Both the position numbers and the translations under genes were made by a program. Shown piece after piece: positions 1 through 61,599 of a stretch of 64,000 nt of DNA. A model generated the notes under the pieces. The model searched no databases. It saw nothing but the letters and a program-made list of their open reading frames with translations, and had not been told where the DNA came from. The DNA lies in IMG/VR virus record IMGVR_UViG_3300045988_079296, positions 1 through 64,000 of that record; one strand, 5' to 3'. Within the stretch, counting starts at the first letter, position 1. Each line of letters begins with the position of its first letter. The DNA is from a virus.

Positions 1-3000
1 AAGTCATCACACCAATAGTCTCCTTCAGCCGCAATCATATTGCCGTCAATCATATTGCCGTCAATCATATATTTTCTGTTATATGACTGCATAATAGGTC
101 TTAACTGAACTGTGGATTGAGTTGCGCCCGTTATCGGAGTAGTCGTTGTTCCTCCGCTTACATGAGTCAAAGCATTAACAGCCGTTTGTAACGGAGTTTG
201 CCAACTTCTTGAATCATGTCCTTCACCTCCGCTGGTATCGAAAATAGGAAGCAAATATATGCTACTTCCCGTTACATTGCCAATTACAAACTGGCGGTCA
301 AGTTGGTCTTTCCAAATAGCTCCAATATCAGCCGTAACCATACCATTGGAATTTGGAATGTACGGGATAATGTACCCGTGTTGTGCATATAGATGCCAAT
401 ATACGGAGCTTTGAAAGAACGGAGCAGTACTATCACCATGCGAAGATTGCAAGTAAGTTGAAACCATCAATTGAGCATCCGTTAAATCGCTTGGTCCAAC
501 ATAAGCAGCCTTCGGAGATATCAAACCATTGAGGTTTGTATAATAAAGTACGATTATGTCTTTCGTTTTTGCTTTGTTATAGCTTGAACGAACATAGAAC
601 AAATAGGTATTCAAAGAAGTTTCCATACCGTAGATATGAACCTTCATCAAACCGCTTGTTTCTTTACCAAGTTGAGAAAGGTCGTAATAATCACCCTCCG
701 TCATAATTTCCAACTTAACTTGGTAAAGATTACTGCAATTAGCCAATATATAAGAAGTTCCAGCTGGAAAATGTAGTTTAGCTCTATCAAGTTGATAGCT
801 TCCTCCCACTGGAGTTGAAACATAATATTCAGCTCCCAGATGATTATTCTCTTCGTCATAATAATGTACAAAGGAAATTCCAGTATTTGAGCCATATCCA
901 GAAGTCAAACGATAATCCAAATTAACATCCGCTATATCATAACGGGTGTAATAGAATGAACCATTCGTTGCAGGAACTCCCGAAGCATTAATGAATTGCC
1001 CTCTTACTTGAGATATCATTTCTTGAAGAGTGTAAGTTTTTTGACGTAATATTTCGTCATGCTTAGCAACTTCCTCTTGCATTTCTTTGATATCAATATT
1101 CTCTGCAACCGCAATATTTACAGTCGGAGCTTTCGGATAATTAGAACGCCAGTTTATAGCTACCTTAGCAGTTCCAATCGGGAACTTAACAATTTCGTCC
1201 AAGCCATAACCAGGCACTGGGTTGGGATACATACCTCGTATCGGCAAACCTTCGGAGTTAAAAGCTACCATAAAGTAAATACCGCCCGAAGATTGTGGCC
1301 AACGTGTTATAACAACATGATACTTCTTTGTATAATCTGGTATGACTACATCTTGATGAACATAATCCGAAGTTATAAGAATAGTTCCATCAGGTCTTTG
1401 ATAACCGTCAACAACCGCTCCTACATCAATGGAATCACCGTCTTTATAGGTCAACAATCCTAAACTATAAAAAGTGTCTTCCAAATCTTCCTTTCGGAAA
1501 GCTCCAAAATTATCTTGAGTTACTCTCAAGTTTGAATATCCTTCAGAGTTTGATGCTTTAGAATAATCAATTATGGCCAATTTAGCTCCCTCAGGAATTG
1601 ACATTGAATCGCCAGTCCAAGTCTGAAAACTTATGAAAGTTTCTTCCGAAGGATAACTTGAATTGAACCAAGCTACAAAAGATGGAATAGCTCCTTCGCA
1701 TTTTAAAGTGGTTGCACCTTTATAAAGGAAAGTCCAAGAACAATCCCATAATTCTAACGGCTGATAACTTCCATATATGCCATTTGTTGAACTTACTAAA
1801 TATCCCAACACAACATTCGGCTCTCCCGAAAAAGAACCATCTTTTGTTTGCGATTGATTCCAATTAAAATTATCTACGCCAGCGGATGACAGAGAAGCCA
1901 AATCAACTCCATACAAAGAACAACCGTCAACGCCCCAACGTAATACATTAACGCAACAACGTATATAGGCAGCTCCTGCTGGAATGTCCGCTACAGCATA
2001 TTCATACACTCCCGTATTTGTTCCTTCAATATCTCCCATGTAACAACTCAAAAATCGTTGTTGAGAGTCATAAAAAGCTATTGGAGTAATTTGTGAGATT
2101 GCGTTTCTCCAACCTCCTTGAAGTCTGATGGGCGTTTTACCCGTAATAGGTAGGAGTGGAGTTGAATCCAAACCAGTTGAACCTCTAACACCTCCCGTTT
2201 CCGTAACACATCTATCTTTTAGAGTAAAGAAGTAACCCGAAAGAGTTTTCTTGTTCTCCGCCACTAAAGCCTGACTTGCTCCAGCACCTTCCTGAATAAC
2301 TCGGAAGTTTCTATAACCACCGCTTTCTTCAACGTAATTTGCCTTGGGAATGTCTATTACAGCAAGTCTCGCTTCGGCTGGGATAGAAACTGTACCAGAA
2401 GTCACAACTGGTGAACTTGCGTTTATCCAAATTGACGTAATATAGTTAGCATCATCCGTATTGAGGTTTTTGAAGAACACTACAAGAATGTTTGAATTAA
2501 TCGGAATACCTTGAATGGTCAACTTTTTAGAACCATCGAAGATTTTGGTCAACGACACATCCCACACTTGAGTTCTCATCCATTTACTAACACCACTTGA
2601 AGTGGACAAAATATAGTTAGGTATTACCAAAGGAATGCAAGAGAACCCTCCATCCTCAGAAACAATCTTTGTTAATTCCAATAAATCGTCTCGTGTTTCG
2701 TTTACCAACCCAATCATAGACATATAATCAACTCCGATAATTCTTGGGAATTGCGCTTGAACTGTTCCCCTTACTATGTTTGCGGTACATTGAATGTATC
2801 TCGCTCCCACTGGTATATCCGAAGCCTTAACGGTGAAAATTTCATCCGTATTTTCTATGGGAGTATAAGACGATATGAATACAAAATTCTTATCGTAGAA
2901 CGCCACTGGAACTATATTATAATCTGGAGCGGGTGATAGCCAACCTCCTATCACCACAATATCTTCTTTTCCAGAAATAGGAAGATAATTTGTAGCAGCA

Positions 3001-3491
3001 AATCCTTGATTGGTAGTAGTTGAGCGTATTCCAGTTTTTGTAATATAATACCCGTTCTCCCACATATCCGCTCCCATAGTTTCGTAGAACTGTTGGTCAA
3101 CGGCTTCTTTCAAAGAGGACTCAACTACATCCGTTCCTATCCAAGCTCCTGCGGGATGGTCTGCGGTAAATCGGTACAAGATACCTTCATAGTTTACAAT
3201 CCTTCCTTTTTTGTACTCTTTGGAAGCACTAAACAATAAGAACCTCGTCAAACCCGTCAATTTGGAAGTTGCGGCTTGACTTAATACTGCGGTTTCATCC
3301 GAACCAATCGTTCCTGCGACTGTGCCTGAATAACCTCTCAATGGAAGTGAGTTCCAAGCATTAACTCCGTCACCGATTTTGTATTGATTAGGGTTATCCG
3401 TAACCCAACCAATCTCACCTTCTAACAAAATCGGATTGTAAGATGCCCATCGGGCAGCTGTGTCTCTCCGCTGTTGAATTCTATCAGCCAT
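1..3491 (-). CDS. Tail fibre / receptor-binding protein; 5' end complete, 3' end beyond the left edge (at least 1163 aa)
   Basis: Absent from the ORF track because no stop lies inside the window. Manual reverse translation from the ATG at 3489-3491 gives MADRIQQRRDTAARWASYNPILLEGEIGWVTDNPNQYKIGDGVNAWNSLPLRGYSG. I found no in-frame stop down to base 3 (frame spot-checked at six places). The N-terminus matches the conserved phage tail-fibre/hyaluronidase/Mtd N-terminal motif. Confidence 0.8.
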   Translation of the reverse strand, partial: MADRIQQRRDTAARWASYNPILLEGEIGWVTDNPNQYKIGDGVNAWNSLPLRGYSGTVAGTIGSDETAVLSQAATSKLTGLTRFLLFSASKEYKKGRIVNYEGILYRFTADHPAGAWIGTDVVESSLKEAVDQQFYETMGADMWENGYYITKTGIRSTTTNQGFAATNYLPISGKEDIVVIGGWLSPAPDYNIVPVAFYDKNFVFISSYTPIENTDEIFTVKASDIPVGARYIQCTANIVRGTVQAQFPRIIGVDYMSMIGLVNETRDDLLELTKIVSEDGGFSCIPLVIPNYILSTSSGVSKWMRTQVWDVSLTKIFDGSKKLTIQGIPINSNILVVFFKNLNTDDANYITSIWINASSPVVTSGTVSIPAEARLAVIDIPKANYVEESGGYRNFRVIQEGAGASQALVAENKKTLSGYFFTLKDRCVTETGGVRGSTGLDSTPLLPITGKTPIRLQGGWRNAISQITPIAFYDSQQRFLSCYMGDIEGTNTGVYEYAVADIPAGAAYIRCCVNVLRWGVDGCSLYGVDLASLSSAGVDNFNWNQSQTKDGSFSGEPNVVLGYLVSSTNGIYGSYQPLELWDCSWTFLYKGATTLKCEGAIPSFVAWFNSSYPSEETFISFQTWTGDSMSIPEGAKLAIIDYSKASNSEGYSNLRVTQDNFGAFRKEDLEDTFYSLGLLTYKDGDSIDVGAVVDGYQRPDGTILITSDYVHQDVVIPDYTKKYHVVITRWPQSSGGIYFMVAFNSEGLPIRGMYPNPVPGYGLDEIVKFPIGTAKVAINWRSNYPKAPTVNIAVAENIDIKEMQEEVAKHDEILRQKTYTLQEMISQVRGQFINASGVPATNGSFYYTRYDIADVNLDYRLTSGYGSNTGISFVHYYDEENNHLGAEYYVSTPVGGSYQLDRAKLHFPAGTSYILANCSNLYQVKLEIMTEGDYYDLSQLGKETSGLMKVHIYGMETSLNTYLFYVRSSYNKAKTKDIIVLYYTNLNGLISPKAAYVGPSDLTDAQLMVSTYLQSSHGDSTAPFFQSSVYWHLYAQHGYIIPYIPNSNGMVTADIGAIWKDQLDRQFVIGNVTGSSIYLLPIFDTSGGEGHDSRSWQTPLQTAVNALTHVSGGTTTTPITGATQSTVQLRPIMQSYNRKYMIDGNMIDGNMIAAEGDYWCDD
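32..70. repeat. 15-bp tandem repeat caatcatattgccgt, 2.6 copies, inside the fibre gene
   Basis: Read directly: copies at 32-46 and 47-61, partial copy at 62-70. Encodes MIDGN MIDGN MIA. Confidence 0.9.
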
Positions 3492-28068: not shown

Positions 28069-28448
28069 TTAATTGTTAATTGTGAAAAATCAATACAATC
28101 TTCGTTCATCCATCCTACAAGATAATCGGACTTTTTGGAATTTGAGAGCTTTTGAAAATCGCTCGGTTGCATCCCGTTCTTGTTAAGATAGGACTGAAAG
28201 CCGTCAACCATTAAGGCTATGCGGCTACCTTTCATAACAATGTCTTGTATATCTTTCGGAAGGTCTTCAATTTTCTCCGTTCCTTCGATAGCTTTGTGAA
28301 ACGCTTCGGACTGCCACGGTTCAAGCAACGGGAACTTCCCTTTGAACGGTATCAAGTCGCTCGGTTTCTTTAGGCTTACATATTTGTTCGCCCTACCAGC
28401 TACCACTGAAACTAATCTTTCTCTGTTCATAACTTTACTTTTTAACAA
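28065..28448 (-). CDS. Hypothetical protein
   Basis: 127-aa ORF overlapping both neighbours. No motif recognised. Confidence 0.55.
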   Translation of the reverse strand: MLKSKVMNRERLVSVVAGRANKYVSLKKPSDLIPFKGKFPLLEPWQSEAFHKAIEGTEKIEDLPKDIQDIVMKGSRIALMVDGFQSYLNKNGMQPSDFQKLSNSKKSDYLVGWMNEDCIDFSQLTIK

Positions 28449-43606: not shown

Positions 43607-43972
43607 TCAATTTACCTCTTTATAATTGTTTAGTGCTTCTTCAATCTTTTGGGTGACCGCTCCGTCAAAGATAATATACTTTGCTTCCAAAGTCTCGTGG
43701 ATGATTATGGCTTCGTCCAAATACTCTATCAAAACCGTATTATCATCCAAACTCGTTATCTCTGGAGCTGTCTCCTTGATATTATCCCATAGAAGTTGAA
43801 AAGCTCGGATGCTTAGAGCATCTTCCATGATTGTATTAGACAGATACTTCATTCGGGGTACAGAAGTATCAATTTCAGCAGCCGCCAGTTGTAAATCGGT
43901 CTCCAACGGCTCTTGCATTGTTGTTAGCTTCTTTGAATACATAACGCTATAATGATTTTGTTTTCGGTACAA
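43607..43972 (-). CDS. Hypothetical protein
   Basis: 121-aa ORF. The start may instead be the Met at 43942, just after the upstream stop. Confidence 0.55.
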   Translation of the reverse strand: MYRKQNHYSVMYSKKLTTMQEPLETDLQLAAAEIDTSVPRMKYLSNTIMEDALSIRAFQLLWDNIKETAPEITSLDDNTVLIEYLDEAIIIHETLEAKYIIFDGAVTQKIEEALNNYKEVN

Positions 43973-45050
43973 ATTTACTTCGTTGCTTACCCTCTCCGAT
44001 AATCATCTTCCAATACTTCTGAAATTCGCAAAGCCACATTTCAATTTGGTGAAGAGTTATATTGGGCTCATCTGACGTGTAATATTCTCCGTCCTCCATA
44101 TCCCAATACAGATAGGGAAAGTTTTCTTTTTTCTCTTCGCTTATTCTTCCCAACCATTCTTCTGCCAAATCTCTTAACCAATATATGGCAGGTTTTTGTT
44201 CTCGGAGCGTAGAAAGGTTTGGATATATGAGACGAATGCCGATACTACACCCTGGCCCAACGTTCGTGAAGTCGTTTTGGTCAAACTTCATAAAACGTCT
44301 GCCCGTGTACTTCGGTATATATGTGAAGTCCTGATAGAACTCATGAGCAATAAAATCGGCTACCGCAGGGAACGTTTTCAAGTACTCAATAATCTCTTCT
44401 GGCTTCTTAGCGGTCATCACCTTAGCAATGAGCTTATCCATGTTCTTATGCAGATGCGGAATAACAACCCTTGTATAGCAATAGTCTCTCGGTTGACCAG
44501 GTGTTGCTTGAGAGTTAATCAAGTAAGCAGTTGTATAAGGGTTTTGCCCCGAACTACGAACGCCAGCAATGAAACGGCTGAACTCGTCCTCATCGTATTC
44601 ATCCCAATCGGGTATGCCGTTCTTCCACTTTGTAGCCGCAATCAATTCGTCTTTCGATTGAGCTTGTTTTAATCCCGATTTCACTGGTGCTCCAAATAAG
44701 CTCGGTTGAAGTGTTTTTCCTTTCGGCTCAAACATAAACGTTTCGGGGCAATTAAAGAAGCGGAAAACCATCATCTTCCAAACCAAGTTCTTCAACGACA
44801 AACTTTCGTCAAGAAGAATGTTCTTGATTTGCCATTGACTATTTCGGTCAAGCTCCCGATACACGTTGGTGAACTTTGACTCTTGAAAAATCTTGTTCTT
44901 TGTCCAAGGTCGTTCTTTCCCGTCTATGAACCTCCGTTTCCATATAAGCTGGCGTTCATACATAGTCTCAAAGAACAAACGCAAATGAGGCTCGTACACC
45001 TCAAGATTTTCGTCAGGTAACTTATCGTACCATGCTGCATTTTCAAACAT
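43947..45050 (-). CDS. Candidate DNA-base hypermodification enzyme (aGPT-Pplase-like), tentative
   Basis: 367 aa. ERQLIWKRRFIDGKERPWTKNKIFQESKFTNVYRELDRNSQW matches my recollection of the N-terminal signature (PWT..D.I....+F.NV.RE.DR.T) of alpha-glutamyl/putrescinyl thymine pyrophosphorylase families. Not verified by search. Confidence 0.45.
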   Translation of the reverse strand: MFENAAWYDKLPDENLEVYEPHLRLFFETMYERQLIWKRRFIDGKERPWTKNKIFQESKFTNVYRELDRNSQWQIKNILLDESLSLKNLVWKMMVFRFFNCPETFMFEPKGKTLQPSLFGAPVKSGLKQAQSKDELIAATKWKNGIPDWDEYDEDEFSRFIAGVRSSGQNPYTTAYLINSQATPGQPRDYCYTRVVIPHLHKNMDKLIAKVMTAKKPEEIIEYLKTFPAVADFIAHEFYQDFTYIPKYTGRRFMKFDQNDFTNVGPGCSIGIRLIYPNLSTLREQKPAIYWLRDLAEEWLGRISEEKKENFPYLYWDMEDGEYYTSDEPNITLHQIEMWLCEFQKYWKMIIGEGKQRSKFVPKTKSL

Positions 45051-49980: not shown

Positions 49981-50262
49981 CTATACATTTAAAATCAAAT
50001 TGTCGCTTTTCAAAAGTCCTTCCAGCTTTTCTTCGGTAGGTATCCAGCCGCAAACAAAGACAATCGTTTCTCCTTGAGCTTTTGCAGCCTTATGCCAAGC
50101 ATCTGATAGCTTCTTGAACCTTTGGTTGTGCATATAAAAATCGAAGTCTGAAACGGATATTTCCCACCAACTTCTATTCTTGTATGCGTAGGCAATCAAA
50201 CCATCTTGCATTCCTTCTACCTTTTGGAGTATGCTCAAAATAAAATCTTCAATCTTCTTCAT
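49981..50262 (-). CDS. Hypothetical protein
   Basis: 93-aa ORF with a 14-nt overlap onto the upstream gene. Confidence 0.55.
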   Translation of the reverse strand: MKKIEDFILSILQKVEGMQDGLIAYAYKNRSWWEISVSDFDFYMHNQRFKKLSDAWHKAAKAQGETIVFVCGWIPTEEKLEGLLKSDNLILNV

Positions 50263-50869
50263 ACATGAATTTGTTGAACTCTTCTTCTCCGATAACTAAC
50301 TTCAACCGCTCGGATAACAAACTGAGGTGTACTTCCTCGTCCGCAATCAGCTTAGACGTTAATTGCATTGCTATCGTCATTGTCTTGGAATAGTTCTCCG
50401 ATACTTCAGATATTCTCGCTTGAATACCTTCGTAGAAACGGATTGTTTCTTGCTCGGCTGTTATCGCTATCTTCAACGCTTCTTCTGCGTCTTTCCCAAC
50501 CTTTACGCCTGAGTTTACAAAACGTTGGTCTATCTTACCGCCTAACTTACGAATGAAGTCTGAAAGTTTATCGTAGTGCTTCATTTCAGTCATTCCAATA
50601 CCCAACATCAGCTCTCCTATATCTTCAAAAGTCGCTTCTTGGGTAGTGTACATATGTATGGCTGTAAGCTCGGAGAAAGAGTTTGAACCGTTATGTATCG
50701 GATAGAACCATTCAGCTGCTACTCCGTCATCCGCTTTCGCCCCATCATACTCTGGATATTCATAATCGGGGTTTGAATAGCGCATAGCATTTACCAACCC
50801 GTCAGTAAGGTCGTCAAGTTGATTTTTGCTCAACGGCTTCATTTTCGCAAAGTCTTTCATATTCCTCAA
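50249..50869 (-). CDS. Ferritin-fold di-metal protein (Mn-catalase / CotJC-like), tentative
   Basis: SELTAIHMYTTQ, GMTEMKHYDKLSDFIRKLGG (ExxH), AEQETIRFYE and ADEEVHLSLL (ExxH) fit the four-helix di-metal pattern of the Mn-catalase/CotJC family. Confidence 0.55.
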   Translation of the reverse strand: MRNMKDFAKMKPLSKNQLDDLTDGLVNAMRYSNPDYEYPEYDGAKADDGVAAEWFYPIHNGSNSFSELTAIHMYTTQEATFEDIGELMLGIGMTEMKHYDKLSDFIRKLGGKIDQRFVNSGVKVGKDAEEALKIAITAEQETIRFYEGIQARISEVSENYSKTMTIAMQLTSKLIADEEVHLSLLSERLKLVIGEEEFNKFMYEED

Positions 50870-51053
50870 TTTTTCTTTGTTTATCTTCTTCGGTCATATT
50901 GCAAGTGCGTCCTATAATGTTACTTGATAATATCTTCACGCTTCCATCAGGCTGCTTTTGCATCATAGTTTCAACGGCAAAGTCGTTACCTTGACCGAAG
51001 TCAACCCCGATAAACAAACCTTTGCCGTTGGTGAATTGTTGGAACTGTCTCAT
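50814..51053 (-). CDS. Hypothetical small protein
   Basis: 79-aa ORF. Its start shares 1 nt with the dUTPase stop. Confidence 0.5.
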   Translation of the reverse strand: MRQFQQFTNGKGLFIGVDFGQGNDFAVETMMQKQPDGSVKILSSNIIGRTCNMTEEDKQRKIEEYERLCENEAVEQKST

Positions 51054-51508
51054 TATTTCATTCCCGTGTGTCCATAACCTCCCGCACCTCTCTCGGAGTC
51101 ACGCTGAAAGCCTTCTACTGGTTTCCATGTAGCTTGGAATAAACCGCCTGAGCCGTTGCACACCGCCTGAGCAATTCTCTCCCCTCTCTTAACAACAAAC
51201 GTCTCGTTGCTGAGATTAATCAAAGGCACTCCAACTTCTCCTTGGTAGTCGGCATCTATTGTGCCAGGTGCGTTGATAACTGTTATGCCTTTCTTAACAG
51301 CCAAACCGCTTCTCGGTCTTATCTGCATTTCGGCATCCGTAGGTAGCTCAACATATACTCCCGTAGGAACAACGCAACGTTCCATGGGTTGAAGTACAAT
51401 GTCATTAACGTTTGCAGCATACAAATCTGCTCCTGCCGAAAGTTCGGTTGCATAATAGGGAAGTTTACCAAAACCTTTGATAATAATTCTTACGTCTCTC
51501 TTTTCCAT
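51053..51508 (-). CDS. dut: dUTP pyrophosphatase (trimeric dUTPase)
   Basis: ATELSAGADLYA, RPRSGLAVKKGI, GTIDADYQGEVG, GERIAQ and the C-terminal RGAGGYGHTG are dUTPase motifs 1-5. Confidence 0.9.
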   Translation of the reverse strand: MEKRDVRIIIKGFGKLPYYATELSAGADLYAANVNDIVLQPMERCVVPTGVYVELPTDAEMQIRPRSGLAVKKGITVINAPGTIDADYQGEVGVPLINLSNETFVVKRGERIAQAVCNGSGGLFQATWKPVEGFQRDSERGAGGYGHTGMK

Positions 51509-51525
51509 TGTTGTTTATTTAATTG

Positions 51526-53196
51526 TTATAAAAATGTATATTTGAATCCCGTTGTTATCAAATTAGCTCCTAACTTAGCCAACCAGAAGCTGGATGAAAT
51601 ATCATCATGCTCTCCTACACTCTCCAATCCCTTATCCGTGAACGCCACAGAACCAAGGTCGGAGAATATGAGGTCTTTAACGTTGCGAGAATAGTCATCG
51701 CCTACGGGAATGTGGATTTTGCCACGCTCAAAGTCTATCGCCAAACCTGGCCAACCCGTCTTCAAGTCATACTTATCTATTCCCGTAGTATGTCCCACAA
51801 CTGGAAGTCCTTGACGGTCACTCTCTTGTACGAATATTTGTTGGAATGTGTTTTGCTCCAATATCATCGTATCAGGTCTGAACCTTGCGTTGATACCTTT
51901 CAACGTCTGCATTTGTTCGTTGAAAGTCATTCCCTTTTGGCGGTGGAAATTAAGCAACCATCTTTCTCCCGTCTCGTCATCTACTCCCCATGTACTGAAC
52001 ACGGTGTAGTCGGCTGCTACGTTAGCGGAGATTGCGAAGTCACAACCCGTTACAACTTTGTTAAACTTAATAGGGAAGTCATCACGATTTCTTACCAATA
52101 CATAATTTTCCATACGGAGTAAAGAACGCTCAAGAACCTTCAACGGGAAGATTGATGCTTCATTCGTAATAGGTCGGCATAAGTTCTCACGGGAAAAGAT
52201 TATGTTACCTTGGGTTGACCTCTTATCTAACAAATCGAAGAAGCTCCAACGCTGTGGCCAAAGTATTCGTCCATCGGGAAAGATTGCAGGATATTCAATT
52301 ACAAACCATCCTTTCTTGCTCTTCAAATCTCCGTATAAGTCGGCTGCGTGAAATGGAGTTCCAACGACTACTATTTGTCCACCTGGTACAAGCATGTTCA
52401 TAATTACCGAATGGAAATAGTCAATGCTCTTCTGCCTTTGTAGCTGACTGTATATGACGTTATCTTTCAGTCCGTCATCTACGACTATCCAGAAGGGGTG
52501 AGCACCACGTACAGAGCTTCCAAACCCCTTACACGTCAATCTCGCTCCGTTCTTACATACGATATTCGTACTTGCCCACGCTCCGCTGTTTCTCGTATCG
52601 GGGAAAAGACGATTGCGAAGAATGTCGTTGCTCTCTATCGTTCCCTTCAAAATCTCCATTAAGTCCACGGACTGCTGGAGTGAGAAGCTAAACAAATACC
52701 CACGATTGGAATTTGCCTTCGTTGGTCTTGCCGAAAACACATTGCCTCTCGGCTTTGCGTAGGAATAAAGTTTCCAAGCAGCGTATGCGTTGGAGAAGTA
52801 GAAAGATTTACCGTGGTCACGGGCAGCTTCAATACAGAGCTTTCTATGACGGTGCACCAAATCTCCCCATTCCAAATGATGCCAAGATAGTTGGAAGTCT
52901 GGAATGACCGAAGTAATGAAGTATGTAAGGTTTCTTGTCCTTAAAGTTTCCTCAATACTCTCTGAAAGTCTCTCGGTGTACTTCGGGGAAAAGTCTATAT
53001 CAGTCTTGCCCGTGTACATAACTTCAAAAGTGTCTCGGATTAAGTTATCAATAACAAAGTCCAAGTCACCCTCCGAACCTTCAAGAAGCTCGTTTATGCC
53101 TCTTTCGTCCAAACCTTCTATAATTTCATCAACGACATTCAAACATTCCAATCGGTGCATTGGGGTTTGAAGTATCAATCCTGAGTCTGTAATCAT
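51526..53196 (-). CDS. terL: Terminase large subunit
   Basis: 556 aa. ATPase motifs AARDHGKSF (Walker A-like) and WIVVDDGL (Walker B), then an RNase H-like nuclease half (GCDFAIS...DYTV, GEHDD). Confidence 0.85.
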   Translation of the reverse strand: MITDSGLILQTPMHRLECLNVVDEIIEGLDERGINELLEGSEGDLDFVIDNLIRDTFEVMYTGKTDIDFSPKYTERLSESIEETLRTRNLTYFITSVIPDFQLSWHHLEWGDLVHRHRKLCIEAARDHGKSFYFSNAYAAWKLYSYAKPRGNVFSARPTKANSNRGYLFSFSLQQSVDLMEILKGTIESNDILRNRLFPDTRNSGAWASTNIVCKNGARLTCKGFGSSVRGAHPFWIVVDDGLKDNVIYSQLQRQKSIDYFHSVIMNMLVPGGQIVVVGTPFHAADLYGDLKSKKGWFVIEYPAIFPDGRILWPQRWSFFDLLDKRSTQGNIIFSRENLCRPITNEASIFPLKVLERSLLRMENYVLVRNRDDFPIKFNKVVTGCDFAISANVAADYTVFSTWGVDDETGERWLLNFHRQKGMTFNEQMQTLKGINARFRPDTMILEQNTFQQIFVQESDRQGLPVVGHTTGIDKYDLKTGWPGLAIDFERGKIHIPVGDDYSRNVKDLIFSDLGSVAFTDKGLESVGEHDDISSSFWLAKLGANLITTGFKYTFL

Positions 53197-61385: not shown

Positions 61386-61599
61386 ATTCTACATCAATTG
61401 CTCTTGCTTTCATTTTGTCCAAACTCGCTCTTTGTTCTGGTGTGAACCGCTTCTTCGGCTCTCCTTCCCATTTCTCTTCGGGTTGAGTATTATCGTAGTA
61501 AGTACGATTGCGCCAAGTCTCTCTTGACATGTTATCACTCATTCCCGAAGTCCTGTACATAAATTCAAACCATTCATCTATCCAATCGAACCTTCCCAT
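61372..61599 (-). CDS. Hypothetical small protein
   Basis: 75-aa ORF, Trp/Glu-rich. Confidence 0.5.
   Translation of the reverse strand: MGRFDWIDEWFEFMYRTSGMSDNMSRETWRNRTYYDNTQPEEKWEGEPKKRFTPEQRASLDKMKARAIDVEYEEV

What the first reader, a model, noticed from the sequence alone, without database searches (positions are those of the whole stretch)
43947..45050. Candidate aGPT-Pplase-like enzyme, suggesting post-replicative thymidine hypermodification of phage DNA
Seen in sequence: the N-terminus reads ERQLIWKRRFIDGKERPWTKNKIFQESKFTNVYRELDRNSQW.

From memory, this fits the signature of alpha-glutamyl/putrescinyl thymine pyrophosphorylase families (Pfam aGPT-Pplase1-3). In the phages where this was worked out (ViI-, M6-, SP10- and PhiW-14-type), these enzymes act on 5-hydroxymethyl-dU in DNA together with a P-loop 5-hmdU DNA kinase. 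The described clusters can also include radical SAM and other tailoring enzymes.

Context in this window:
- dUTPase at 51053-51508,
- a P-loop kinase-like protein at 61574-62821,
- the radical SAM / deacetylase / glycosyltransferase cassette 8 kb downstream.

Inference: the phage may carry a sugar- or amine-bearing thymidine derivative.
Basis: partly seen in the sequence, partly recalled or inferred. Interest (0 to 1): 0.65.

Follow-up and report, generated by a model that had tools for sequence, protein, structure and literature searches.

The report
Thymine-modification enzyme homolog in gut phage
An abundant ~98-kb gut phage encodes a clear member of the uncharacterised "Pplase1" enzyme family plus a dUMP hydroxymethylase, so its DNA probably passes through 5-hydroxymethyluracil, but it has neither the kinase nor the proven transferase of known thymidine-hypermodification pathways.

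Summary
The ORF is real (window 43947-45050, minus strand, 367 aa) and holds the quoted peptide. It matches only Pfam PF18723 (E 3.4e-50). PF18723 is now called "5-hmdU DNA kinase, helical domain"; it used to be aGPT-Pplase1 and includes ViI gp160, YuA gp14, SP10 gp186C and PhiW-14 gp72. No biochemical function has been shown for this clade. The proven transferases are Pplase2/ADDT (PF18724).

A high-confidence AF2 model matches SP10 gp186 (TM 0.69) and, distantly, ADDT. The family-invariant E337-x3-C341 motif lines up with ADDT's catalytic E243/C247.

I reconstructed the ~98.6-kb genome. The source lineage encodes a dUMP-hydroxymethylase-type ThyA homolog, a YfbR-like 5'-deoxynucleotidase and a dUTPase. 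It has no 5-hmdU DNA kinase (PF18748), no ADDT and no known tailoring enzyme. The radical SAM enzyme is a generic SPASM type, and no deacetylase was found.

The same PF18723 + ThyA-like pair sits adjacent in 15 marine viral contigs, 14 without a detectable kinase or ADDT nearby.

Verdict: the family call and a 5-hmdU link are supported. A sugar- or amine-bearing thymidine is not. New member of a known but uncharacterised kind; moderate interest.

The parts
43947..45050 (-). PF18723 (HMUDK_hel, old aGPT-Pplase1) protein, 367 aa, standalone
   Evidence: ORF. Pfam E 3.4e-50. AF2 pLDDT 93.8. BFVD matches to SP10 gp186 (E 1e-13) and PhiW-14 C9DG43.
44832..44957 (-). Holds family-invariant R33, R65, D68 and near-invariant W49, F60, N62.
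   Evidence: Translation. Conservation in the 131-sequence alignment A1. The RELDR motif resembles GDLDP of ADDT, whose acidic residues bind metal or ligand; this resemblance is by eye only.
44622..44732 (-). Lineage-specific insertion loop (about residues 107-143), low model confidence
   Evidence: Most homologs match in two stretches that flank it. pLDDT is 55-62 there.
44244..44267 (-). TNVGPGCS hairpin (G265-P266-G267 conserved), probably a helix-hairpin-helix DNA-backbone contact. C268 is not conserved (family consensus GPGA).
   Evidence: The same NVGPGC occurs in SP10 gp186C.
44013..44042 (-). Putative catalytic helix EMWLCEFQKY: E337, invariant C341, E342, invariant K345, Y346
   Evidence: hhalign places C341 on ADDT C247 and E337 on E243. 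C247 is the catalytic Cys of PaMx11 gp46.
51053..51508 (-). dUTPase, a possible nucleotide-pool component of a 5-hmdU pathway (specificity untested)
   Evidence: PF00692, E 1e-25

Best explanation
The gene encodes a standalone enzyme of the PF18723 clade (old aGPT-Pplase1), a helix-hairpin-helix, glycosylase-like fold related to the amino-acid:DNA transferases (ADDT/Pplase2).

Proposed mechanism:
1. The phage's ThyA-like dUMP hydroxymethylase makes 5-hmdUMP.
2. The YfbR-like 5'-deoxynucleotidase and the dUTPase bias the nucleotide pool.
3. The phage's DnaE-type polymerase puts 5-hmdU into DNA.
4. Late in infection this protein flips out 5-hmdU (or an activated ester of it) and attacks C6 with Cys341. 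The Glu337/Asp68 acidic site assists. This forms an exocyclic-methylene intermediate, which is then resolved to the final base.

Shown here: family membership, fold, conservation of the Cys/Glu/Asp constellation, presence of the hydroxymethylase-type ThyA in the source lineage, and no detectable kinase or ADDT.

Inferred: action on DNA, the Cys chemistry, the activation step and the product.

On the product I lean slightly (about 0.30 against 0.25) towards the non-ADDT branch known from model phages, meaning 5-hmdU to thymine or one simple product conserved across the family, over a donor-specific amine or sugar adduct. My reasons:
- ViI, M6 and PhiW-14 have two fates for 5-hmdU and two paralogs, and ADDT accounts for the hypermodified base.
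- The PF18723 pocket residues next to the Cys are nearly invariant across the family, whereas the ADDT pocket varies with the donor.
For: Family and fold:
- PF18723 only, E 3.4e-50.
- ViI gp160, YuA gp14 and SP10 gp186C all score PF18723.
- SP10 gp186 fuses this domain to a proven 5-hmdU DNA kinase, and in YuA it directly follows the kinase gene. Both point to DNA as the substrate.
- AF2 pLDDT 93.8. BFVD matches: SP10 gp186 TM 0.69, PhiW-14 gp72, and ADDT proteins at probability 0.99, TM 0.45-0.49. PaMx11 gp46 ranks 2-3 in the PDB.

Active site:
- R33, R65, D68, C341 and K345 are invariant; E337, E342 and Y346 are at least 90% conserved.
- The only hhalign alignment is colinear and puts C341 on C247 and E337 on E243 (motifs).
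- The ADDT Cys, Glu and metal-site roles are established experimentally.

Pathway context:
- The ThyA-like protein keeps Cys146 and Asn177 but has lost W80, has H147N and carries a C-terminal extension, like the SP10 gp188 and YuA gp17 hydroxymethylases.
- It is present in the source lineage: L099 is 99.97% identical to L016, which carries an exact window protein.
- PF18723 and the ThyA-like gene are adjacent in 15 marine contigs. A pelagiphage precedent is PMC9599517.
- How 5-hmdU becomes thymine is stated to be unknown (PMC5889632).
Against: - No activity has ever been shown for any PF18723 protein. M6 gp55 was not needed for GlyT formation.
- No 5-hmdU DNA kinase is detectable in the whole genome, so the leaving group that the known chemistry needs is missing.
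- The profile link to ADDT is statistically weak (hhalign E 0.048, probability 1%; PDB Foldseek E 0.3-1.3, TM 0.31-0.38).
- Against a thymine product: no reductant-binding domain is evident, SP10 makes glutamyl-thymine without any ADDT, and a minimal hydroxymethylase + PF18723 pair that only restores thymine looks futile.
- The ThyA-like gene lies roughly 50 kb from this gene, so within this genome the link rests on co-occurrence, not adjacency.
Confidence: 0.55

Rival explanations
1. One reading: the protein is a donor-specific group transferase like Pplase2/ADDT. Together with the downstream radical SAM / glycosyltransferase cassette it installs an amine- or sugar-bearing substituent on thymidine. 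(This is one of the two product branches inside the 0.55 given to the best explanation.)
For: - It shares a fold and the E-x3-C motif with ADDT.
- SP10 makes alpha-glutamylthymidine yet has only this clade and no ADDT (Table 3).
- A stable modification is the simplest selective benefit for the widespread two-gene PF18723 + ThyA pair.
Against: - ViI and M6 each carry this clade as well as ADDT, yet only one hypermodified base is reported for each, and M6 gp55 was dispensable in vitro.
- The residue after the Cys, which helps select the donor in ADDT (K248 in YuA, G227 in phage 15599), is a near-invariant Glu here.
- The radical SAM enzyme is a generic SPASM type unrelated to YuA gp12 or SP10 gp185.
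- The GT hit is sub-threshold.
- The adjacent cassette was already described in 'Gratiaviridae', where a capsule or immunity role was proposed.
- No kinase is present.
Confidence: 0.25
2. It is a non-catalytic helical DNA-binding or targeting module for a 5-hmdU DNA kinase, as the current Pfam name implies.
For: - The Pfam name.
- It is fused to the kinase in SP10 and adjacent to it in YuA/M6.
- A C-terminal deletion of SP10 gp186 still phosphorylates DNA.
Against: - No PF18748 kinase is detectable in this complete genome or within 10 kb in 14 of 15 marine loci.
- The Cys, Glu, Asp, Lys and Arg residues are invariant or nearly so, which is typical of an active site.
- The protein shares a fold with a catalytic family, ADDT.
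Confidence: 0.08
3. It acts on free nucleotides, not DNA, for example by cleaving or converting dTMP or 5-hmdUMP as part of pool manipulation.
For: - The best PDB match, though weak, is the queuosine-nucleotide glycosylase QNG1/DUF2419 (E 0.34).
- In pelagiphages it clusters with the TS-like gene and a 5'-deoxynucleotidase.
Against: - It is fused to a kinase that acts on DNA polymer in SP10.
- It has GPG hairpins of the HhH type, and its closest characterised relatives flip bases out of duplex DNA.
- In this genome it sits at the start of the head-gene block, not among the nucleotide-metabolism genes.
Confidence: 0.1
4. It is a generic HhH-type DNA repair glycosylase, or it has a role unrelated to 5-hmdU, and its co-occurrence with the ThyA-like gene is coincidental.
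For: Weak Foldseek hits to AlkA, OGG1 and ROS1. Homologs are reported in bacteria and fungi (PMC5889632).
Against: - Repeated tight adjacency to hydroxymethylase-type ThyA in unrelated phages.
- In the phage collection, homologs fall mainly in genera known to hypermodify thymidine.
- The HhH-glycosylase matches are very weak (TM at most 0.24).
Confidence: 0.05

Closest known systems
PF18723 proteins of thymidine-hypermodifying phages: ViI gp160, M6 gp55 / YuA gp14, SP10 gp186 C-terminal domain, PhiW-14 gp72 ('aG/PT-PPlase1')
   Same: Same Pfam family. Same invariant motifs: ERQxIW, FTNVxRxLDR, NVGPG, E-x3-CE-x2-KY. Same predicted fold (TM 0.56-0.69). They also co-occur with a dUMP hydroxymethylase.
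   Different: Only 21-27% identical. It carries a ~37-residue insertion. Its genome has no detectable 5-HMUDK kinase and no ADDT paralog, whereas all four model phages have a kinase and three have ADDT. It is encoded at the replication/head-gene junction of a Bacteroides-type gut phage.
Amino-acid:DNA transferases, PF18724 ADDT (aGPT-Pplase2): M6 gp51 / YuA gp10, ViI gp247, PhiW-14 gp109, PaMx11 gp46 (PDB 8z2m), phage 15599 DADT
   Same: Distantly related HhH-containing fold (BFVD probability 0.99; PDB ranks 2-3). A C-terminal helix with Glu and Cys four residues apart, aligned by hhalign. An acidic LD motif near the N-terminus.
   Different: No HMM-level similarity (no PF18724 hit at E<=1; hhalign probability 1%). 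The donor-selecting position after the Cys is a near-invariant Glu. No activity is known for the clade.
TS + aG/PT-PPlase1 (+ 5'-deoxynucleotidase) 'partner genes' of HTVC023P-type pelagiphages (PMC9599517)
   Same: The same gene trio with no kinase reported. I found the same adjacent pair in 15 marine IMG/VR contigs, 14 of them with no kinase or ADDT detected within 10 kb.
   Different: Here the genes are dispersed over roughly 50 kb in a ~98.6-kb contractile-tailed gut phage with a DnaE polymerase. The absence of detectable kinase and ADDT was checked over the whole genome, not just a neighbourhood.
'Gratiaviridae' gut phages (Benler et al. 2021, PMC8008677)
   Same: DnaE, DnaG, SF1 and SF2 helicases, SbcCD, RecA, a ferritin-like protein, baseplate and sheath genes, and a GT / AAA-ATPase / kinase-like cassette after the portal gene.
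   Different: Membership was judged by gene content only, with no TerL phylogeny. That paper does not mention thymidylate, hydroxymethyl or hypermodification.

Membership tests
Pfam PF18723 HMUDK_hel (formerly aGPT-Pplase1) | Full-length HMM match above the gathering score | tested here: met
   171.4 bits against a cutoff of 25, E 3.4e-50, two stretches around a lineage-specific insert. The reference members ViI gp160, YuA gp14 and SP10 gp186C hit the same model.
Pfam PF18723 HMUDK_hel (formerly aGPT-Pplase1) | Family-invariant residues present (R33, R65, D68, G265-P266-G267, E337, C341, E342, K345, Y346) | tested here: met
   131-sequence alignment A1. The motifs are also present in SP10, YuA and ViI members.
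Pfam PF18723 HMUDK_hel (formerly aGPT-Pplase1) | Same three-dimensional fold as family members | tested here: met
   AF2 pLDDT 93.8. BFVD: SP10 gp186 E 1e-13, TM 0.69; phiRSL1, PhiW-14 and 'Pplase1'-named proteins at E 1e-10 to 2e-4.
Pfam PF18723 HMUDK_hel (formerly aGPT-Pplase1) | Fusion or adjacency to a 5-hmdU DNA kinase (PF18748), the source of the family's current name | tested here: not met
   No PF18748 hit among the window ORFs of at least 100 aa that were scanned, nor in the rest of the genome (precomputed Pfam). A kinase HMM with filters off finds only noise.
Pfam PF18723 HMUDK_hel (formerly aGPT-Pplase1) | Co-occurrence with a dUMP hydroxymethylase-type ThyA homolog | tested here: met
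   P0513 is on a contig 99.97% identical to one that carries an exact window protein. Residue pattern. All 6 large IMG/VR contigs with the ThyA-like gene also have PF18723.
Pfam PF18724 ADDT (aGPT-Pplase2, amino-acid:DNA transferase) | HMM or profile match to the family | tested here: not met
   No PF18724 hit at E<=1. hhalign of A1 against the ADDT alignment A2: E 0.048, probability 1%.
Pfam PF18724 ADDT (aGPT-Pplase2, amino-acid:DNA transferase) | Catalytic Cys with a metal-binding Glu one helical turn before it | tested here: inconclusive
   E337-x3-C341 aligns with E243-x3-C247 in the only hhalign alignment (motifs), but the alignment is not statistically significant and no coordinates could be superposed.
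Thymidine hypermodification pathway (Lee et al. 2018, 2021) | dUMP hydroxymethylase that supplies 5-hmdU | tested here: met
   phmmer E 4e-48 to SP10 gp188 and 3e-35 to YuA gp17. Cys146 and Asn177 kept, W80 lost, H147N, C-terminal extension. Scores are below every thymidylate-synthase equivalog cutoff. The activity itself is not tested.
Thymidine hypermodification pathway (Lee et al. 2018, 2021) | 5-hmdU DNA kinase (5-HMUDK) | tested here: not met
   See the kinase row above. The 415-aa P-loop ORF at 61574-62821 has no family hit, and its P-loop domain is absent from sister genomes. Its AF2 model is unusable (pLDDT 36).
Thymidine hypermodification pathway (Lee et al. 2018, 2021) | Pplase2/ADDT transferase and tailoring enzymes (PLP decarboxylase, radical SAM isomerase, FAD lyase, acetyltransferase) | tested here: not met
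   The ADDT HMM and phmmer with YuA gp10, gp11 and gp12 and SP10 gp185 find nothing. The only radical SAM enzyme is a generic SPASM type.
Thymidine hypermodification pathway (Lee et al. 2018, 2021) | Modified thymidine present in virion DNA | not testable with these tools
   Needs nucleoside LC-MS/MS or raw nanopore signal.
'Gratiaviridae' (provisional, Benler 2021) | DnaE + DnaG within a module of SF1/SF2 helicases, SbcCD and RecA; contractile tail; ferritin-like genes | tested here: met
   compared with the description. TerL, DnaE and DnaG phylogeny not done.

The most novel reading that the evidence does not exclude
PF18723 enzymes are self-sufficient 5-hmdU DNA-converting enzymes that need neither the 5-hmdU DNA kinase nor ADDT. 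In the minimal 'hydroxymethylase + PF18723' systems of 'Gratiaviridae'-like gut phages and marine phages, they would either install a still-unknown base or perform the long-sought polymer-level conversion of 5-hmdU to thymine. Either outcome would mean that one of the common Bacteroides phage groups of the human gut replicates through non-canonical DNA.
Probability: 0.25. Interest if true: 0.75.

Novelty: new member of a known kind. Interest (0 to 1): 0.45.

Why it matters
If the prediction holds, a widespread family of human-gut Bacteroides phages replaces thymidine with 5-hmdU at least transiently. That would affect restriction evasion, host range, phage-therapy design, and sequencing or nanopore behaviour of gut viromes.

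This genome also offers a clean minimal system for assigning a function to PF18723. It has a hydroxymethylase-type ThyA and a PF18723 protein, and no kinase or ADDT was detected anywhere in the complete genome. PF18723 is the uncharacterised paralog in every studied thymidine-hypermodifying phage. It is a candidate for the step that Lee et al. 2018 called unknown, the conversion of 5-hmdU to thymine in DNA.

Tried and rejected
- **Terminase small subunit.** PHROG 800 gave E 4e-11. Rejected: the label comes from YuA gp13, which is annotated 'terminase small subunit; putative kinase' and is really a PF18748 kinase lying next to the homolog gp14.
- **crAss-like phage.** I considered this from the genome size. 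Rejected: TerL is nearest to the Bacteroides DAC/SJC phages, and the gene content fits 'Gratiaviridae'.
- **The 415-aa P-loop ORF as a substitute kinase.** No Pfam, NCBIfam or PDB hit. Its P-loop domain is missing from sister genomes. The single-sequence AF2 model is unusable (pLDDT 36), so I did not fold-search it.
- **The 788-aa kinase-like ORF.** The profile found nothing in the PDB. Left as an observation.
- **C268 in 'GPGC' as the catalytic Cys.** Rejected: the family consensus there is GPGA, and the invariant Cys is C341.
- **PDB searches.** The sequence search with the target found nothing. PDB Foldseek gave only weak hits.
- **hhalign against a single ADDT sequence.** Uninformative.
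- **Nucleotide search against phage genomes.** Megablast of 10 kb found no match.
- **Papers not held.** Iyer et al. 2013 and the Witmer SP10 papers could not be read. My memory of the SP10 mod mutants was therefore not used as evidence.
- **Look-ups with wrong gene starts** returned nothing.
Full report
**Observation.** The quoted peptide is residues 32-73. The ORF matches a single Pfam model, PF18723, at E 3.4e-50 (171 bits against a cutoff of 25). No other family reaches E<=1. PHROG 2396 (unknown function) matches at 7e-47. An exhaustive HMMER scan of 1.84 billion representative proteins finds 2,342 relatives at E<=1e-3, mostly standalone proteins of 300-350 aa. The exact protein is on at least 22 metagenome contigs.

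**What PF18723 is.** Pfam now calls it 'HMUDK_hel: 5-hmdU DNA kinase, helical domain'. I ran the reference proteins through Pfam to fix the nomenclature.
- ViI gp160, YuA gp14 (the M6 gp55 equivalent) and the C-terminal half of SP10 gp186 are PF18723.
- YuA gp10 (M6 gp51) is PF18724, 'ADDT, amino acid:DNA transferase'.
- YuA gp13 and the N-terminal half of SP10 gp186 are PF18748, the P-loop 5-hmdU DNA kinase.
- Lee et al. 2018 listed ViI gp160 and SP10 gp186C as 'aG/PT-PPlase1' (PMC5889632). The Vi01 hit is orf00160.

The clade, however, has no demonstrated activity. Lee et al. 2021 showed that M6 gp54 (kinase) plus gp51 (Pplase2) suffice for glycinyl-thymidine and that gp55 is dispensable. 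They assigned no role to ViI gp160 (PMC8989533). The weak PHROG 800 'terminase small subunit' hit is an annotation artefact: YuA gp13, the kinase, carries that label.

**Structure and active site.**
- A 131-sequence alignment (A1) has invariant R33, R65, D68, F233, G267, C341 and K345. W49, F60, N62, R97, N100, G265, P266, E337, E342 and Y346 are at least 90% conserved.
- AF2 with this alignment gives pLDDT 93.8 and pTM 0.91. The fold is nearly all-helical, with one low-confidence, lineage-specific insert at about residues 107-143.
- Against predicted viral structures the model matches SP10 gp186 (E 1e-13, TM 0.69), phiRSL1, PhiW-14 C9DG43 and a protein named 'Pplase1'. It reaches ADDT-domain proteins at probability 0.99, TM 0.45-0.49.
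- Against the PDB everything is weak (E at least 0.34), but the top hits share a theme: QNG1/DUF2419, PaMx11 gp46 (8z2m, 8z2n), then AlkA, ROS1 and OGG1.
- The ADDT catalytic centre is known from experiment: an essential Cys (C247 in PaMx11 gp46, C226 in phage 15599), a Glu and Thr four and three residues before it that bind metal, and an N-terminal Asp.
- YuA gp10 reads QEVETVLCKWKSH. The target reads HQIEMWLCEFQKY (window 44013-44042).
- hhalign between A1 and a 47-sequence ADDT alignment (A2) is not significant (E 0.048, probability 1%). Its only alignment is colinear from the HhH hairpin to this helix and puts C341 on C247 and E337 on E243.

I take this as suggestive, not proven, evidence for the same Cys-C6 chemistry. 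The residue after the Cys helps select the donor in ADDT. Here it is a near-invariant Glu.

**Genome reconstruction.**
- The window is the reverse complement of the last 64 kb of a 98,610-bp ENA scaffold (scaffold position = 98,611 minus window position).
- A differently permuted 98,656-bp contig implies a circular or terminally redundant genome.
- I read 8.8 kb beyond window position 64000 (L008) and 6.5 kb beyond position 1 (L011-L016).
- I closed the remaining gap with a sister genome (L017, L047, L057) and with contigs of other lineages (L089, L091).
- The gap holds, in a conserved order: DEAD helicase, DnaB, DnaG-like primase, a sigma-like protein, a 399-416-aa ThyA-family protein, DNA Pol III alpha, a YfbR-like HD 5'-deoxynucleotidase, RecA-like, Mre11-like, SbcC-like, and a second UvrD helicase.
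- Proof for the source lineage: cluster member P0513 lies on a 39,425-bp contig (L099). That contig is 99.97% identical over 7.8 kb to L016, which carries an exact window protein. Sample SRR29713751 holds both that contig type and the 59,260-bp contig with the exact target protein.

**The ThyA-like protein is of the hydroxymethylase type.**
- Its best phage hits are the enzymes of SP10-like, M6-like and ViI-like phages. phmmer gives E 4e-48 to SP10 gp188 ('dUMP hydroxymethylase') and 3e-35 to YuA gp17.
- It falls far below every NCBIfam thymidylate-synthase equivalog cutoff.
- In alignment with E. coli ThyA (sequence written from memory) it keeps the nucleophile Cys146 and Asn177. Asn177 is the dUMP-specifying residue and is Asp in dCMP hydroxymethylase; this is established knowledge, not tested here.
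- It shares several departures from ThyA with the SP10 and YuA enzymes: loss of W80, H147N, R127Q, and a ~130-residue helical C-terminal extension.

**What is missing.**
- Pfam scans of nearly all window ORFs of at least 100 aa that were not already covered by precomputed annotation, and of the ORFs in the extra regions, find no PF18748 kinase, no PF18724 ADDT and no PLP, FAD or acetyltransferase tailoring enzyme. Precomputed Pfam annotation of the source-lineage contigs agrees.
- phmmer with YuA gp10, gp11, gp12 and gp13 and SP10 gp185 and gp186 recovers only the target and the ThyA-like gene.
- Kinase and ADDT HMMs run with all filters off give only noise.
Its P-loop domain has no counterpart at the syntenic place in sister genomes. 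Its single-sequence AF2 model is unusable.
- The radical SAM enzyme (34964-35920) is a generic SPASM type, below every NCBIfam cutoff. The GT hit is sub-threshold. No deacetylase was detected.
- The GT, P-loop ATPase and 788-aa kinase-like ORFs fit the cassette that Benler et al. 2021 described for 'Gratiaviridae'. The gene content of this phage matches that provisional family. That paper mentions neither thymidylate, hydroxymethyl nor hypermodification.

**Independent association.**
- The ThyA-like query also pulled out unrelated marine IMG/VR contigs at about 37% identity. In 15 of them a PF18723 gene lies directly upstream of the ThyA-like gene.
- Only one of the 15 (L071) also has a kinase and an ADDT within 10 kb. 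The recurring P-loop ORF in these loci is a ~498-aa, helicase-sized protein.
- This agrees with the TS + aG/PT-PPlase1 (+ 5'-deoxynucleotidase) partner genes reported in HTVC023P-type pelagiphages (PMC9599517).
- Within the gut-phage group, all six large IMG/VR contigs found with the ThyA-like query are also found with the PF18723 query.

The conserved partner of PF18723 is therefore the hydroxymethylase, not the kinase. That argues against a purely accessory 'kinase helical domain'.

**Interpretation.**
- The best-supported reading is that the phage makes 5-hmdUMP, incorporates 5-hmdU into DNA, and this late-expressed HhH-fold enzyme processes 5-hmdU in DNA through a Cys341-C6 adduct.
- Action on DNA is inferred from two things: the SP10 fusion to a kinase that acts on the DNA polymer, and the base-flipping relatives.
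- The activation step and the product are unknown.
- Two product branches remain open.
- The other is the non-ADDT fate of 5-hmdU, conversion to thymine, whose enzyme is explicitly unknown. It fits the 'two fates, two paralogs' pattern in ViI, M6 and PhiW-14 and the invariant pocket of the family.
- I lean slightly to the second branch. It looks futile for a minimal two-gene system, and no reductant site is apparent.

**Verdict.** This is a new member of a known but biochemically uncharacterised family, in an unreported host context. It stands out for a whole-genome-verified configuration in which neither a kinase nor an ADDT could be detected.

Noticed in passing
window 51508-51526; L002 2191-2802, L004 1732-2382, L003 7128-7922: GIY-YIG/SegE-like homing-endonuclease genes are present or absent between TerL and the dUTPase gene, and next to the FEN gene, in contigs that otherwise carry the identical target protein. 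The window itself has none: TerL abuts the dUTPase gene.
   Followed up: no
window 1-3491 (ORF runs off the window start; 1463 aa in L011 10722-15113): A tail-fibre-like protein with a weak Mtd_N hit. This stretch is only 84-90% identical between contigs that are 98-100% identical immediately downstream, so it looks like a hypervariable receptor-binding gene.
   Followed up: partly
window 28435-34286: A weak GT1 (479 aa), a P-loop ATPase (660 aa, GGAGIGKS, PHROG 1250) and a 788-aa protein with protein-kinase-like motifs (VMK, ANWDVYQNDN, VDNGG) followed by further conserved domains. This matches the 'GT / AAA ATPase / HipA-like kinase' cassette of 'Gratiaviridae'. The 788-aa protein is conserved down to 41% identity in 34 IMG/VR contigs. 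The profile has no PDB sequence hit.
   Followed up: partly
window 34964-35920: A radical SAM + SPASM enzyme lies inside the late structural block, flanked by ORFs of 310 and 228 aa with no family match. SPASM enzymes usually mature peptides or proteins, so it may modify a virion or host protein and not DNA.
   Followed up: partly
window 50249-50869: A ferritin/rubrerythrin-like protein lies between the UvrD helicase and dUTPase genes, as reported for 'Gratiaviridae' (proposed oxidative-stress tolerance).
   Followed up: no
L008 4585-5076; L057 7821-8471 (outside the window): The phage encodes an ECF-type sigma factor and a second 216-aa protein with a weak sigma-70 region 2 hit, which suggests phage-directed transcription of middle or late genes.
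   Followed up: no
window 61574-62821: This 415-aa P-loop ORF looks mosaic. Its N-terminal ~140 aa and its C-terminal ~80 aa each have homologs in different sister genomes, but the central P-loop domain has none.
   Followed up: partly
L071 1181-8357 (IMGVR_UViG_3300045993_000137): This is the only marine contig of the 15 with a full set in one 7-kb cluster: ADDT, a 191-aa 5-HMUDK, PF18723 and the ThyA-like gene. It is a useful comparator for the minimal pairs.
   Followed up: no
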